This document shows, in pieces, positions 37,264-47,233 of a DNA stretch of 57,363 nt. Position numbers and translations under genes: made by a program. The notes under the pieces were generated by a model. It had not been told where the DNA came from. It saw only the letters and a list, made by a program, of their open reading frames with translations, and searched no databases. Source of the DNA: a virus (taxonomy: Duplodnaviria > Heunggongvirae > Uroviricota > Caudoviricetes); the IMG/VR virus record IMGVR_UViG_3300043466_002831, positions 1 through 57,363 of that record; one strand, written 5' to 3'. How positions within the stretch are numbered: the first letter of the stretch is position 1; every line of letters starts with the position of its first letter.

Positions 37264-37337
37264 CGCGAGGTAGTAGCAGTGGTCAGCTCGTCAGGCTCAT
37301 AACCTGAAGGTCGGAGGTTCGAATCCTTCTCTCGCTA
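37264..37337 (+). tRNA. tRNA-Met(CAT), initiator-like; CCA not encoded
   Basis: CGCGAGG/TCTCGCT acceptor with unpaired C1, anticodon arm TCAGG-CTCATAA-CCTGA, T-arm GGAGG-TTCGAAT-CCTTC. Confidence 0.95.
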
Positions 37338-37400
37338 CTAAACAAAAAAAAGTTTACAAAAGATTTGGAAAATCGAAAAAGTATACTTATCTTTGTAAAA

Positions 37401-38330
37401 CAATTAAGAAAACGTTCTTTGAATTAAAGATATTATCCGTTCAGGAAACACAAAAGTGTCGGTGATATTATCCACCGAGTAAATGGCAGAAAGTCCGCAG
37501 CTTGAGTGTAACTGATAAAGATATTGGGCGGTCTATAGTCCATAAAATAAACCATGAAAGTGGTATAAAGTGAATCATTTGGTTAAGTGGTTTGCGGCTT
37601 TCGAAAGAGAGCTCGAGTAGACAAGCGAGATATCGTTAGACCTTGAGTACCGAGGGTGACACTGTAGGGAAACTGGTTTGATGACCAAGCGATGTGGGTC
37701 GTTTGGTTGAGATGGGAACATCAATAAGAATAACTCGTAGAATTATTACAAGACATACGGTCATCCAACCGTACAATTGTGTGATTCATTACAAGAGTGG
37801 GTTTAAAACCGAAAGGTAAGAGGTCGTACAGGTGGTGCTGTTGTCTCCTTCTTAATTTCTCTACCAAGAGAGTTAGGATGAAACAAACTTGAAGTATGAA
37901 GATAGGGATATCTTAGGGAGTAGTTAAGTATCGTGTCGTTCAAAAGATGACATGGCTTGGTCGGCGAACCGCTACTTTCATCATCCACAACCGCAAACTT
38001 TGTTAATTAAGGTTTAACAACTAAAAGATACAAGGAAAAGCGTTCGCCAGTCGTGATTGACAGGTCACTACATAGTCATGAGATGTTCATGGCCGTAAAG
38101 GGTCCCAAGCCCAATACGATTGTTGTGAAAGTTCTCTAAGTCCGCAAGACCGAATCAGGGTGGCAACCTTGAAGAGCAACGAGTAAAAACAGAGTAGATT
38201 ACGACTTAAGGATTGGTTAATCTAATTGACCGTGACTGAGAATTACTATTCAAAAGATAGTGGAAATCGGAGGAAAAAATAATCTCCTGTAAAGATTCTC
38301 ATACGAAGGTGTATTCTCAACCTGAAGCCA
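37401..38330 (+). ncRNA. giant structured ncRNA, GOLLD-like
   Basis: no credible ORF; own promoter and terminator; many helices; size and tRNA-adjacent phage context match GOLLD RNA; boundaries approximate. Confidence 0.7.
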
Positions 38331-38332
38331 AG

Positions 38333-38367
38333 AACCCCGACAAGAAATTGTTGGGGTTTTTTGTTTT
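38333..38367 (+). terminator. intrinsic terminator ending the large ncRNA
   Basis: AACCCCGACAA-GAAA-TTGTTGGGGTT plus T-run. Confidence 0.85.
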
Positions 38368-38396
38368 ATATCATTTTTTGTATTATCTTTGTTCCC

Positions 38397-38822
38397 ATGA
38401 AAGAGGGAGTCAACATAGTGAACAGAAGAGCGAAGCACGAATACGAGTTCTTGGACACGTATCAAGCGGGTATGGTCTTGACTGGTGTTGAGGTTAAATT
38501 CATTCGTGATGGTAAGTTATCTTTTGTTGATTCTTATTGTATGTTCCATGATGGTGAGTTGTTTATGAAAAATGTATCCATCTCTGGTATTGGTACAGAC
38601 AATATCAAAAGAGACCGTAAGTTGTTACTCAGGAAACGTGAATTGGTTAAACTTCAAAAGAGTTTGGACAAAGGTTTGAGTATTATCCCTTACCGTATTT
38701 ACCAAAAGAAAAACACCCTCAAGGTTGATATCGTTCTTGCTCGTGGTAAAAAATTACATGACAAGAGACAGACCTTGAAGGAAAAGGATATTCAAAAAGA
38801 AATAAGTAGAACATTAAAATAA
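38397..38822 (+). CDS. smpB: SsrA-binding protein SmpB
   Basis: NRRAKHEY, AGMVLTGVEVK, RDRKLLL, LARGKKLHDKR; start moved to 38397, own promoter 38360-38391. Confidence 0.92.
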   Translation: MKEGVNIVNRRAKHEYEFLDTYQAGMVLTGVEVKFIRDGKLSFVDSYCMFHDGELFMKNVSISGIGTDNIKRDRKLLLRKRELVKLQKSLDKGLSIIPYRIYQKKNTLKVDIVLARGKKLHDKRQTLKEKDIQKEISRTLK

Positions 38823-42973: not shown

Positions 42974-43303
42974 ATGGAAAATCTAAAAGAAAAAATCGGA
43001 CAAGTAATGAAGCAAGTTTCATTCTACACAGTAATCACCATCAGCCTTATCGTTGGTTTCTCAATCGGATACTACTATGATTTTGTGAAACAAAGTTATA
43101 AGAAAGAACCTAAGTTCACATCGGTTAGAAAATCGGATATCAAGTTGGCGATTGACGAGAACAACAACTTGTTAATCATCAAAGAGAGTGACGGGTCTTA
43201 TACGGTTTATCAAGACTCAGTTGGATATACAATCTTTGGTCTATATGCCAAGAACATTTGGGGTCAAGCTTCCGCTCCATCAACTCCTAAAACTGAGAAA
43301 TAA
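42974..43303 (+). CDS. single-TM membrane protein
   Basis: N-terminal TM helix. Confidence 0.7.
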   Translation: MENLKEKIGQVMKQVSFYTVITISLIVGFSIGYYYDFVKQSYKKEPKFTSVRKSDIKLAIDENNNLLIIKESDGSYTVYQDSVGYTIFGLYAKNIWGQASAPSTPKTEK

Positions 43304-43845
43304 TGTTGAAGAGAGGACTTAAATTCCTGTATGTCTTGTGTCTCATGGCGGTCATAATGGCTACCATGAGTCTCACAAACAAGTATGTTCGCCAGGACGA
43401 ATATAGTTTAAGTGAATTAGGTGGGAAACCAAACTCACCATTCTGTTTACAGATGTACACCTCAATTGAGAAATACAGTGAGATGTACAAGGTACCTAAG
43501 TATATTGCGTACAACGTGGCATACCTTGAAACACGTTATCAGGGACCATTCCATTGGAATTATGACCACAGGAAAGTGTCTTCAGCAGGAGCTCAGGGAC
43601 CAATGCAAATCATTACAAGATGGGCTCACAGTTATGCTGAAAGAAGAGTTAGTGAAAAAGAGTTACGTAATAACATTGACTTAAATGTTAAGGTTAGTAT
43701 GAAGATGTTGAGAACAAGATATGATATGACTCGTGATTGGATGTTGGCTTGTGGTGGGTACAACACTGGTTCACCTGTTAGAAACTCATATGCAGTGTTT
43801 GCAGCGTCAAACAAGAATTATAAAAATAATTGGATTAAATATTAA
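43303..43845 (+). CDS. lytic transglycosylase (SLT family) with signal anchor
   Basis: AYLET, SSAGAQGPMQI, N...SMKML, GYNTG. Confidence 0.85.
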   Translation: MLKRGLKFLYVLCLMAVIMATMSLTNKYVRQDEYSLSELGGKPNSPFCLQMYTSIEKYSEMYKVPKYIAYNVAYLETRYQGPFHWNYDHRKVSSAGAQGPMQIITRWAHSYAERRVSEKELRNNIDLNVKVSMKMLRTRYDMTRDWMLACGGYNTGSPVRNSYAVFAASNKNYKNNWIKY

Positions 43846-46138: not shown

Positions 46139-46190
46139 ATTTGACTTTTGAATAAAAACACTTATAATATACAAACAACAAAACAAGATT

Positions 46191-46631
46191 ATGAAAGTAA
46201 AACAAGCATTAAAGTACAAGAAGAAATTAGCTTCAAAGATGAACCAAGAGTTCGGTAAAGTTCAAATGTATAATTCTGTTGAGGAAGGTTCAACACGAGT
46301 TTATGATGTTAAAGAATCAATGAAAAATTGGTTGACCATGAGTGAAGAATTGGTTGAATTAAAAACCAAATTACACTTGGCAAATGCACCTGTATACGGT
46401 AAAATTTTCCGTATGTCTGAGTTGAAATCTCAATTGTCGAATCTAAAATCATTGGATTGTGTTGAGGGTAAATACTCTGACCGTTATGGTAGAATGAGTG
46501 GAGATTCTCCAATCGTCAAAACCGCACAAATTGGTATCTTGGAAAGAGACCAAATGGTTTCAATTATTGAAGAAGAAATCGAAAGAATCCAAGAAGAATT
46601 GGATGAGCATAACGCTACCACATCCATCTAA
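46191..46631 (+). CDS. DIP1984/DUF6847-like coiled-coil protein
   Basis: MKVKQAL...YNSVEEG...ELVELKTKLHLAN...ELDEHNATTSI; pattern recalled for this family. Confidence 0.6.
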   Translation: MKVKQALKYKKKLASKMNQEFGKVQMYNSVEEGSTRVYDVKESMKNWLTMSEELVELKTKLHLANAPVYGKIFRMSELKSQLSNLKSLDCVEGKYSDRYGRMSGDSPIVKTAQIGILERDQMVSIIEEEIERIQEELDEHNATTSI

Positions 46632-46637
46632 GATATT

Positions 46638-46807
46638 GGGTTAAGTTGAGAGAGGGAAGGTAATACGTCACGTACAAAACATATCTGGAAACTTTGATAC
46701 ATGAACTGATAAGAATTCAAATCTCAGTCTTCAAAGCGTCAAACTTGTTAAACCCTCAAATGTTAAAATTCTTTTAGACATTTTATCTAACTTTTTTCAC
46801 TTAACCC
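46638..46807 (+). ncRNA. putative structured 3' RNA element
   Basis: ends pair: GGGTTAAGT 46638-46646 with ACTTAACCC 46799-46807, extended by GA/U-rich wobble pairs; nested inner helices. Confidence 0.55.
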
Positions 46808-46828
46808 TTTTTATTGTATTTATTAATA

Positions 46829-47233
46829 ATGAAAGCATGTTTCAAAGATATTAATAAATTTTTCACCACAGAACAAATCGAAGTTACGAAAGAGTTTGTA
46901 AAGTTCTTACATTCTCAATTACCTCTTACAGATGATGTCTACATTACATTCACAGGTAATAGAGATATTAAGATGACCACAGGGGTTAGAATGCCAGGAC
47001 ATAAGATATATGTATTGGCGAACAAAAGATTGTTGATTGATATTTTTAGAACCGTTGCACACGAGTGGGTTCATGAATTCCAACATCAAAAGATGGGACT
47101 TAAAGATACCGATAAGATACAGAACATCGGTGGTCCTGAAGAAAACATGGCAAATACTTTATCGGGAATTTTCGTTAAACAATTCGATAAAGAAAATCCC
47201 CAATATAGTAGTGTAATTTACGAACAGGATTAG
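46829..47233 (+). CDS. HExxH metallopeptidase-like protein
   Basis: VAHEWVHE...ENMAN. Confidence 0.7.
   Translation: MKACFKDINKFFTTEQIEVTKEFVKFLHSQLPLTDDVYITFTGNRDIKMTTGVRMPGHKIYVLANKRLLIDIFRTVAHEWVHEFQHQKMGLKDTDKIQNIGGPEENMANTLSGIFVKQFDKENPQYSSVIYEQD

What the first reader, a model, noticed from the sequence alone, without database searches (positions are those of the whole stretch)
46191..46807. DIP1984-like coiled-coil gene with a self-enclosed 170-nt structured 3' RNA (candidate protein-ncRNA system)
Six nt after the stop codon, GGGTTAAGT(T)GAGAGAG pairs with CTTTTTTCACTTAACCC about 150 nt later, with G-U wobbles that favour RNA on the + strand. Inside are nested helices (CTTTGA/TCAAAG, ACTGA/TCAGT, AAATGT/ACATTT) and about six T(C/T)AAA motifs between 46717 and 46767. 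It is far larger than a terminator, and the protein has no known function. A ribonucleoprotein, a type III TA-like pair or an RNA-guided system is conceivable.
Basis: partly seen in the sequence, partly recalled or inferred. Interest (0 to 1): 0.7.

Follow-up and report, generated by a model that had tools for sequence, protein, structure and literature searches.

The report
Phage protein gene with partner RNA
Right behind a small phage gene of unknown function lies a real, conserved, roughly 170-base folded RNA carrying a row of evenly spaced 7-base units; the pair travels together in every related phage examined and matches no catalogued RNA family, so it is probably an undescribed protein-RNA module.

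Summary
Six bases after the stop codon of a 146-aa helical protein (46191-46631), an RNA element (46638-46807, + strand) is closed by a long 5'/3' helix and holds seven UYAA units spaced 7-9 nt apart.

A covariance model built from 24 relatives finds exactly one copy, on the gene's strand and directly after the gene, in all 88 related phage loci and once in this phage's own 138-kb record. All 11 modelled closing pairs show compensatory changes. G-U pairs outnumber A-C mismatches 69 to 13.

Searching by the RNA pattern alone returns the gene upstream in 26 of 28 informative phage hits; the other two are chance hits inside thyX. No Rfam family matches and no paper mentions the protein family.

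The protein has the DIP1984 fold (Z 13 to PDB 3kdq) but scores below the family cut-off. It is predicted to form a homodimer.

True DIP1984 genes in Bacillota also carry a conserved, different 3' non-coding element.

Best reading: a dedicated protein-RNA pair, with the protein probably binding the periodic units. Binding and function are inferred, not shown. Type III toxin-antitoxin and RNA-guided readings have no support.

This scan has reported the same kind of pair on other DNA many times. The claimed phage T5 relative could not be verified here.

The parts
46141..46168 (+). Promoter-like site (TTGACT, 16 nt, TATAAT; 11 of 12 consensus matches) 22 nt upstream of the start codon
   Evidence: Consensus scan. 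It is a match to a consensus only, and the host promoter type is not known.
46191..46631 (+). Gene for a 146-aa helical protein with the DIP1984 / DUF6847 fold, predicted to form a homodimer
   Evidence: ORF. AlphaFold2 mean pLDDT 96.4. 3kdq match: Z 13.0, 140 residues aligned, rmsd 3.1. NF038048 scores 17.4 bits against a cut-off of 70 for this protein, but 88 of 101 relatives match it. DUF6847 matches 56 of 101 relatives. Dimer ipSAE 0.65 against a best control of 0.01.
46638..46807 (+). Whole conserved RNA element (heptad-rail RNA), 170 nt
   Evidence: Covariance model R1 scores 121.4 bits, E 1e-18, over the full model length. There is one copy in the 137,752-base record.
46638..46662 (+). 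5' strand of the closing rod, purine-rich: P1a 46638-46646, P1b 46648-46655, P1c 46658-46662
   Evidence: Fold. Covariation of P1a and P1b. Rod duplex z-score averages -3.2 over 51 relatives.
46664..46674 (+). Short hairpin P2 (UACG/CGUA), at the position where relatives carry longer hairpins of unrelated sequence
   Evidence: A hairpin of at least 4 bp is present in 43 of 51 relatives, but the segment z-score is not significant.
46694..46710 (+). Conserved YUGAU motif (GAU nearly invariant) followed by ACUGA, which can pair with the second rail unit UCAGU (46724-46728)
   Evidence: Nearly invariant columns G, A, U. Clade A has GUUAA/UUAAC at the same place. This was seen by eye and not tested formally.
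46717..46769 (+). Heptad rail: seven UYAA(A/C) units starting at 46717, 46724, 46731, 46739, 46748, 46756 and 46763. It is G-poor and about half unpaired in the ensemble.
   Evidence: Across the family, a spacing of exactly 7 nt occurs 124 times against about 4 in shuffles. Unit profile.
46758..46783 (+). Hairpin over the nearly invariant UUAAAAYUC block (AAAUGUU/GACAUUU plus AAA/UUU). The stem is clade-specific; the sequence block is family-wide.
   Evidence: alignments.
46784..46807 (+). 3' strand of the closing rod, pyrimidine-rich: P1c 46784-46788, P1b 46791-46798, P1a 46799-46807
46808..46815 (+). T-run (TTTTTATT) directly after the closing helix; a possible transcript end
   Evidence: Sequence. 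A T-run or a separate G+C-rich hairpin with a T-run follows the element in 34 of 51 relatives. The terminator scan did not call it. One RNA-library contig runs on to 46862.

Best explanation
The stretch 46638-46807 encodes a structured non-coding RNA made on the + strand. It is most likely the 3' part of the transcript of the preceding gene, or is processed from it. A long three-part helix between its two ends clamps an interior that holds a short hairpin, a conserved YUGAU segment and a G-poor rail of about seven UYAA(A/C) units at 7-nt spacing.

Shown: the RNA is the one constant neighbour of the 146-aa DIP1984-fold protein gene. Inferred: the two form a ribonucleoprotein in which copies of the protein (predicted to be a parallel homodimer) dock on successive rail units, so that the clamp presents a fixed number of binding sites.

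The biological role is unknown. The recurring neighbourhood of tRNA genes, SmpB and GOLLD points loosely to RNA or translation housekeeping during infection.
For: - Element after every gene copy: model R1 finds one copy, on the gene's strand and directly after the gene, in all 88 phage loci (protein identity down to about 46%). It finds nothing else in 450 kb except weak reverse-strand echoes.
- Single copy in this phage: one hit in its own record.
- Closing helix covaries: on a plain MAFFT alignment, 9 of 11 pairs have compensatory changes. On the model alignment, 11 of 11 do, with 89.9% of cells paired against 66% in shuffles and 37-60% when the partner is slid, and a covariation score of 0.559 against 0.208.
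- Strand: G-U 69 against A-C 13 in the helix. A terminator or T-run lies on the + strand after the element in 34 of 51 relatives.
- Periodicity: a 7-nt spacing occurs 124 times against about 4 expected.
- Reverse test: 26 of 28 informative pattern hits in IMG/VR have the gene upstream, and the other two lie inside thyX. In 185,579 genome representatives the only strong hit also has the gene.
- Independence from the stop codon: the RNA persists when a small ORF is inserted between gene and RNA (L032, L077, L080, L086).
- Neighbouring genes otherwise differ.
- Bona fide DIP1984 genes in Bacillota also have a conserved ORF-free 3' element.
- RNA-library contigs span the gene/element junction (46549-46699) and the rail (46679-46780).
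- Homodimer prediction: ipSAE 0.65, best of 3 controls 0.01. This mark was reached by 20 of 30 solved pairs and 1 of 23 single chains. The runs agree in at least 98% of contacts and partner pLDDT is at least 89. The pass may reflect likeness to 3kdq.
Against: - No direct evidence that the protein binds the RNA.
- The protein is near neutral (median pI 6.8), and several invariant residues (N28, K58, E77, F73) lie in the predicted dimer interface rather than on a free surface.
- Whole-element folding energy does not favour the + strand: mean -34.3 against -36.0 kcal/mol, with + more stable in only 20 of 51.
- Interior helices could not be resolved, and P2 is not statistically supported.
- The RNA-library contigs may derive from DNA carry-over, and one runs past the closing helix.
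- The model alignment is fitted to the structure, so its pair counts lean towards it.
Confidence: 0.55

Rival explanations
1. The element is a cis-acting 3' untranslated region. It would be a large stabilising or terminating structure, or a site that regulates expression of the upstream gene's own mRNA, with no separate life as an RNA or as a particle.
For: It starts 3-10 nt after the stop codon in most loci. A terminator or T-run follows it in 34 of 51 relatives. An RNA-library contig bridges gene and element.
Against: A stabiliser or terminator needs no nearly invariant sequence blocks or 7-nt periodic units. The element is kept when another ORF separates it from the gene. In clade A no terminator follows it. 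In one RNA library the rail contig has depth 17 against 2 for the gene piece; this is weak, because contig depths are poor measures.
Confidence: 0.18
2. The RNA is a decoy or sponge for a host factor. Candidates are an RNA-binding protein, Rho, or an enzyme or nuclease that recognises 7-nt tRNA loops. On this reading the neighbouring protein only assists it or is co-regulated with it.
For: The G-poor rail has regularly spaced UC/UU dinucleotides and units resembling 7-nt tRNA loops (UUCAAAU-like). tRNA genes lie within 2 kb in 11 of 56 loci, in several independent clades. The neighbourhood includes SmpB and GOLLD.
Against: The strict one-to-one linkage with a single protein family is not explained by a host target alone. 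No host factor has been identified. The resemblance to tRNA loops is by eye only.
Confidence: 0.15
3. The feature acts as DNA: iteron-like repeats between inverted repeats, for example a replication origin, a partition site or a recombination site.
For: It consists of short direct repeats at near-helical spacing flanked by a long inverted repeat. Whole-element folding energy is no better on the + strand.
Against: The inverted repeat keeps pairing through G-U (69) far more often than through A-C (13), which matters only for + strand RNA. Arm sequences change completely between clades while pairing is kept. The element always lies on the gene's strand and is followed by + strand terminators. A 7-nt period does not match the 10.5-bp DNA helical repeat.
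Confidence: 0.05
4. It is a type III toxin-antitoxin-like pair in which the repeat RNA neutralises a toxic protein.
For: A protein gene is strictly linked to a repeat-bearing RNA. 'Septicolysin' is used as an annotation label for relatives on Acinetobacter plasmids, by annotation only.
Against: The gene order is reversed relative to ToxIN. The units are 7 nt, not about 36 nt. The protein is a helical bundle with no nuclease fold match. There is no PADLOC match. The pair is carried by lytic-type large phages next to tRNA genes.
Confidence: 0.04

Closest known systems
TRAP with the trp leader, and HutP with the hut terminator RNA (Bacillus subtilis)
   Same: A single-stranded RNA tract carries a short motif repeated at a fixed small period (HutP: UAG every 7 nt; TRAP: GAG/UAG every 5-6 nt). 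That tract is read by several identical protein subunits at once. This comparison rests on my own knowledge of these systems.
   Different: Those proteins are beta-rich rings and the RNAs are 5' leaders that control termination. Here the protein is a helical bundle with a predicted dimer. The RNA lies 3' of the protein's own gene and is clamped by a long terminal helix. The motif here is UYAA.
Ro60 (Rsr) with Y RNAs / YrlA (Rfam RF02553)
   Same: A dedicated protein and a small RNA whose 5' and 3' ends form a long closing stem are encoded side by side. They are often near tRNA-related or RNA-repair genes and occur in bacteria and phages. The Bacillota partner elements even contain a T-arm-like hairpin.
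   Different: The protein is not a TROVE/vWA ring. No Y RNA or YrlA model matches. No RtcB is found in this phage record. Y RNAs have no heptad rail.
GOLLD, ROOL and other ornate phage RNAs (RF02032, RF03087)
   Same: They are conserved structured RNAs of unknown function carried by large phages, often beside tRNA genes. GOLLD is present in this very window and next to the pair in L036.
   Different: Those RNAs are 400-800 nt, form RNA-only assemblies (PMC12286853) and have no fixed protein gene partner. This RNA is about 170-215 nt and always follows one protein gene.
CsrB/RsmZ and CrcZ protein-sponge RNAs
   Same: They carry multiple copies of a short single-stranded motif (GGA; A-rich CA motifs) that titrate a dimeric or hexameric RNA-binding protein. 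This comparison rests on my own knowledge.
   Different: Their motifs sit in hairpin loops at irregular spacing. The partner proteins (CsrA, Hfq/Crc) are encoded elsewhere and are global regulators.
DIP1984 family / DUF6847 (PDB 3kdq; NF038048; PF20935)
   Same: The fold is the same over the whole chain (Z 13.0, 140 residues) and the length is the same. Relatives of the window protein match the family models. Family members in Bacillota also have a conserved non-coding 3' element.
   Different: The window protein itself scores 17.4 bits against a cut-off of 70 and has no Pfam hit. The bacterial 3' elements share no detectable sequence or heptad rail with the phage RNA.

Membership tests
DIP1984 family (NCBIfam NF038048) / DUF6847 (PF20935) | The protein scores at or above the curated cut-off of the family model | tested here: not met
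   NF038048 scores 17.4 bits against a cut-off of 70. There is no Pfam hit at E <= 0.1 other than noise.
DIP1984 family (NCBIfam NF038048) / DUF6847 (PF20935) | Homology to the family is traceable through intermediate sequences | tested here: met
   88 of 101 aligned relatives match NF038048 at E < 1e-3, best 8.7e-15. 56 of 101 match DUF6847. The profile of the relatives hits 3kdq at E 0.007 over the full length.
DIP1984 family (NCBIfam NF038048) / DUF6847 (PF20935) | Same three-dimensional fold as the solved member 3kdq | tested here: met
   Foldseek TM 0.66-0.74. VIA-align Z 13.0, rmsd 3.1, 140 residues aligned; the next best is Z 8.8 and covers only partial helical hairpins.
Type III toxin-antitoxin (ToxIN, CptIN, TenpIN) | The antitoxin RNA is an array of tandem direct repeats of about 34-40 nt, upstream of the toxin gene and separated from it by a terminator | tested here: not met
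   The RNA lies downstream of the gene. The units are 7 nt. No tandem array of longer units is present.
Type III toxin-antitoxin (ToxIN, CptIN, TenpIN) | The toxin is a ToxN/AbiQ-type endoribonuclease | tested here: inconclusive
   There is no Pfam, PHROG or PADLOC match to such families. The fold is a helical bundle whose only clear match is 3kdq. A family that is not listed is not strictly excluded.
Any Rfam 15 family (including 6S, Y RNA/YrlA, tmRNA, GOLLD, RAGATH motifs) | A match to a curated covariance model | tested here: not met
   No hit on the element at E <= 10 in the window. None at E <= 0.1 in 15 diverse loci. None on the Bacillota elements at E <= 0.01.
TRAP / HutP type periodic-motif RNA recognition | A short RNA motif repeated at a fixed small period in a single-stranded tract | tested here: met
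   UYAA occurs at exactly 7-nt spacing 124 times against about 4 in shuffles. The rail is G-poor (7% G). About half of the rail is unpaired in the ensemble for the window.
TRAP / HutP type periodic-motif RNA recognition | The protein belongs to the TRAP or HutP fold and forms a ring oligomer | tested here: not met
   The fold is the DIP1984 helical bundle. Only a homodimer was tested, and it is supported by prediction.
TRAP / HutP type periodic-motif RNA recognition | The protein binds the repeats | not testable with these tools
   No protein-RNA complex predictor or experiment was available.
Intrinsic (Rho-independent) terminator | A short G+C-rich hairpin with a 3-8 nt loop directly followed by a U-run | tested here: not met
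   The closing helix spans 170 nt. The terminator scan calls nothing at 46630-46820. A T-run does follow at 46808-46815.

The most novel reading that the evidence does not exclude
The pair is a new class of ribonucleoprotein in which dimers of a helical-bundle protein line up on a clamped rail of 7-nt units. The units imitate 7-nt tRNA loops (T-loop or anticodon-loop like, UUCAAAU). The particle would then act in tRNA or translation maintenance, or as a decoy against host tRNA-targeting defences during infection. The same protein family would use different partner RNAs in bacteria and in phages.
Probability: 0.12. Interest if true: 0.9.

Novelty: categorically new. Interest (0 to 1): 0.75.

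Why it matters
The protein family is large: 1167 clusters at 50% identity and 266 IMG/VR loci for this branch alone. It has had a solved structure since 2009 and still has no known function.

A dedicated, conserved RNA partner gives the family its first concrete functional handle. It also adds an uncatalogued structured RNA class to the small set of phage RNAs (GOLLD, ROOL) that cluster with tRNA genes.

The periodic rail makes a simple, testable prediction: stoichiometric binding of protein copies to UYAA units. If the pair proves to be a particle, it would be a new way for a helical protein to read RNA. It might also show what large phages do with their translation-related accessory regions.

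Tried and rejected
- Strand from folding energy: the - strand folds slightly better overall, so this argument was dropped. The strand assignment rests on G-U counts and terminators.
- Interior helices: a column-pair scan of the model alignment found only P1a and P1b. The P2 hairpin is common, but its z-score is not significant. CUUUGA/UCAAAG loses pairs in L003 and L005 without compensation.
- Phage T5, named in earlier notes of this scan:
  - NF038048 and the A1 profile find nothing in the whole T5 record.
  - T5.081 with RNAX is not the pair.
  - T5.085 (212 aa) is followed by an unannotated 360-nt gap with an A-rich 7-nt tract, but hhalign gives probability 0.3, Pfam finds nothing and R1 finds nothing. 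The link is unverified here.
- RtcB: not found in this phage's record, which is 47% complete.
- tblastn of the protein against 50,697 named phage records: one weak hit in an uncultured phage. blastn of the region: nothing.
Relatives cannot be drawn for a virus record.
- The 47 other pattern hits in bacterial genomes are chance. They give only weak partial R1 scores and have no DIP1984-like gene upstream.
- Parts of the stretch without RNA-library cover are not taken as evidence of anything.
- mafft-qinsi was not installed, and my first alifold run gave no structure.

Full report
**What is in the window.**
- The ORF 46191-46631 (+) encodes a 146-aa protein.
- A strong sigma-70-like promoter match lies at 46141-46168.
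- Six bases after the stop codon, GGGTTAAGT (46638-46646) is the exact complement of ACTTAACCC (46799-46807).
- The predicted fold extends this helix through GAGAGAGG/CUUUUUUC, which has four G-U pairs, and AGGUA/UAUCU.
- The fold energy is -40.5 kcal/mol, z = -2.97 against shuffles.
- Inside the clamp are a small hairpin, a UUGAU segment and seven UYAA units at 46717-46769, spaced 7, 7, 8, 9, 8 and 7 nt apart.
- A T-run follows the clamp.
- No ORF longer than 30 codons lies in the element. A 7-nt period is also incompatible with coding.

**The window is a large lake-water phage.**
- It carries a full-length GOLLD RNA and a tRNA-Met.
- It is a 137,752-base virus record.
- DNA runs that hold the stretch are lake-water metagenomes.

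**The protein.**
- It has no Pfam, PHROG or PADLOC match of note.
- NF038048 (DIP1984 family) gives only 17.4 bits against a cut-off of 70.
- The family is nevertheless large. There are 418 close relatives and 1167 representatives at 50% identity.
- Of 101 aligned relatives, 88 match NF038048 and 56 match DUF6847.
- The AlphaFold2 model (pLDDT 96.4) matches only the solved DIP1984 protein 3kdq over its whole length. Foldseek gives TM 0.66-0.74. VIA-align gives Z 13.0, rmsd 3.1 and 140 residues aligned, with the next hits at Z 8.8 or less covering partial helical hairpins.
- 'DIP1984-like' is therefore right at the level of fold and distant homology, but the protein fails the family's score cut-off.
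- The protein is near neutral. Its conserved basic and polar residues lie near both termini: K8, K10, K12, Q134, H140 and N141.
- A homodimer is supported by prediction: ipSAE 0.65 against a best control of 0.01. This mark was reached by 20 of 30 solved pairs and 1 of 23 single chains. Runs agree in at least 98% of contacts and partner pLDDT is at least 89.
- That pass may reflect likeness to 3kdq. The interface uses invariant N28, K58, F73 and E77.

**The RNA is conserved wherever the gene is.**
- In 88 IMG/VR loci (protein identity 97% down to about 46%) the stop codon is followed by an ORF-free gap of about 180-230 nt with one shared plan:
  1. a purine-rich 5' strand;
  2. a hairpin of variable sequence;
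  3. YUGAU;
  4. a G-poor run of UYAA units;
  5. a nearly invariant UUAAAAYUC block;
  6. a pyrimidine-rich 3' strand.
- A covariance model built from 24 diverse copies finds one copy in every locus. Each is on the gene's strand and directly behind the gene. Nothing else appears in 450 kb apart from three weak reverse-strand echoes.
- The model finds one copy in the phage's own record.
- In four clade members a small cysteine-rich ORF sits between the gene and the RNA, and the RNA is still there.

**Covariation.**
- On a plain MAFFT alignment, RNAalifold predicts 11 closing pairs, and 9 of them have compensatory changes.
- On the model-fitted alignment of 59 distinct rows:
  - all 11 pairs have compensatory changes;
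  - 89.9% of cells pair, against 66.2% in shuffles (0 of 500 reach the observed value) and 37-60% when the partner is slid by 1-3 columns;
  - the covariation score is 0.559 against 0.208.
- The rest of the rod was checked per sequence. The duplex between the first and last 45 nt averages -22 kcal/mol, with a mean z of -3.2 and z < -2 in 38 of 51.
- The arm sequences differ completely between clades.

**Strand.**
- G-U pairs outnumber A-C mismatches 69 to 13 in the closing pairs.
- A classic terminator (21 of 51) or a T-run directly after the clamp (13 of 51) lies on the + strand.
- Whole-element folding energy does not discriminate between the strands.

**Periodicity.**
- Successive UYAA motifs are exactly 7 nt apart 124 times in 56 distinct copies, against about 4 in shuffles. 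A secondary peak lies at 14 nt.
- The unit profile is U-Y-A-A-(A>C)-(A>N)-N with 7% G.
- The upstream YUGAU/GAU segment falls into the same 7-nt register in many copies.
- One local helix shows what looks like compensation between clades: ACUGA/UCAGU in the window clade against GUUAA/UUAAC in clade A. It would display the first, invariant UCAA unit in a loop. I did not test this formally.

**Reverse test.**
- A degenerate pattern of the rail alone found 32 IMG/VR stretches.
- Of the 28 with room upstream, 26 have the protein gene directly upstream on the same strand, at E 1e-43 to 1e-58.
- The other two are chance matches inside a thyX gene on the opposite strand.
- In one genome for each of 185,579 bacterial and archaeal species the pattern hit 48 places.
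  - Only one is a true copy (R1 108.9 bits), and it too follows the gene. It lies on a 2.2-kb contig of an Aquiluna MAG.
  - The rest give weak partial scores and have unrelated genes upstream.
- This RNA type therefore appears confined to phage DNA, and no orphan copy was found.

**Context.**
- Neighbouring genes are not conserved between clades.
- tRNA genes lie within 2 kb in 11 of 56 loci, belonging to at least four clades.
- In one clade the pair sits inside a tRNA array next to freshwater-1 and GOLLD RNAs.
- SmpB and Band_7 genes recur nearby.
- No RtcB is found in this record.

**Expression.**
- Six metatranscriptome runs hold short parts of the stretch. Four were laid.
- Their contigs, at 95-100% identity, cover:
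  - parts of the gene;
  - the gene/element junction (46549-46699, riverine run);
  - the rail (46679-780, estuary run; depth 17 against 2 for a gene piece);
  - 46715-46862, which runs past the clamp.
- This is compatible with co-transcription and with partial read-through. It is weak evidence: these are contigs, depth is unreliable and DNA carry-over is possible.

**Bacterial relatives.**
- Bona fide DIP1984 genes (150-196 bits) occur in 15 of 301 sampled Bacillota genomes.
- All 16 loci examined have an ORF-free gap of 238-675 nt after the gene.
- The 13 full-length, non-duplicate loci aligned share conserved blocks: GGUAGC, GGCGAG, ACUACC..GCUG and a terminal GUGAGGGYGGG...GGGG. Several contain a T-arm-like hairpin.
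- These elements have no heptad rail and no Rfam match.
- The protein family therefore seems to keep a partner RNA of different kinds in different lineages. That is what a dedicated protein-RNA relationship predicts.

**What it is not.**
- No Rfam family matches the element.
- It is not a canonical terminator.
- It does not fit type III toxin-antitoxin systems in gene order, unit size or protein fold.
- Nothing suggests an RNA-guided nuclease.
- No paper in the library mentions DUF6847. DIP1984 and 'septicolysin' appear only as annotation labels.

**Earlier notes of this scan.**
- They describe the same kind of pair on many other genomes. I reproduced the core claims independently for this locus.
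- I could not reproduce their claim of a phage T5 member by sequence.
- T5 does have an unannotated 360-nt gap with an A-rich 7-nt tract behind the 212-aa T5.085 gene.

**Verdict.**
- Shown: a conserved, structured RNA on the gene's strand with a clamped heptad rail, strictly linked to a DIP1984-fold protein gene in large freshwater phages.
- Inferred: the two form a particle in which protein dimers read the rail.
- Unknown: what the particle does.

Noticed in passing
window 37264-38822: A tRNA-Met gene (37264-37338) is followed by a full-length GOLLD RNA (RF02032, 327 bits, 37916-38323) and then an ORF at 38361-38822. Earlier notes call that ORF SmpB. The block lies about 8 kb upstream of the pair studied here.
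   Followed up: partly
window 46826-47233: The next gene encodes a protein of about 135 aa with an HExxH-like motif (AHEWVHEFQH) and no Pfam, PHROG or NCBIfam match. It also follows the RNA in the close clade and seemingly in L013 and L022. It could be a small metallopeptidase.
   Followed up: no
L183-L196 (Bacillota chromosomes), the 190-270 nt after each DIP1984 gene: True DIP1984-family genes are followed by a conserved non-coding element. It ends in GUGAGGGYGGG...GGGG and in several copies contains a T-arm-like hairpin (for example GCAGG-TTCAAAC-CCTGC). It has no Rfam match and no heptad rail. It is probably a second, undescribed partner RNA family.
   Followed up: partly
L097 23143-23505 (phage T5 record 43142-43504, - strand): An unannotated 360-nt gap lies behind the 212-aa gene T5.085 and contains an A-rich tract with a 7-nt period (AAAG-type units). 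No sequence similarity to the window protein or to model R1 was detectable. T5 also lists eight 'stable RNAs with unknown functions' in its tRNA region.
   Followed up: partly
L032, L077, L080, L086: about 2440-2625: A small ORF of about 60 codons with two Cys pairs (zinc-ribbon-like) overlaps the stop codon of the DIP1984-like gene and sits between it and the RNA, in one clade only.
   Followed up: no
L036, L044, L055, L066: In this clade the pair is embedded in an array of seven tRNA genes. L036, the one locus of this clade scanned with Rfam, also has a freshwater-1 RNA (RF02979) upstream and a GOLLD RNA about 500 nt downstream; all four are followed by tRNA-Met. This makes a dense island of non-coding RNA genes.
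   Followed up: partly
L105 733-791 and L124 758-816: The rail search pattern also matches, by chance, the antisense strand of a conserved stretch of a thyX-like gene (shown for L105; L124, with the same match length, not inspected). This is a warning that the pattern alone is not specific.
   Followed up: yes
window 46694-46716 and the same columns in relatives (A3 columns 126-150): The conserved YUGAU...GAU segment upstream of the UYAA rail is in the same 7-nt register and is complementary to UCA of the rail units. The two halves could zip into a periodic imperfect helix or a pseudoknot. This was not resolved.
   Followed up: partly
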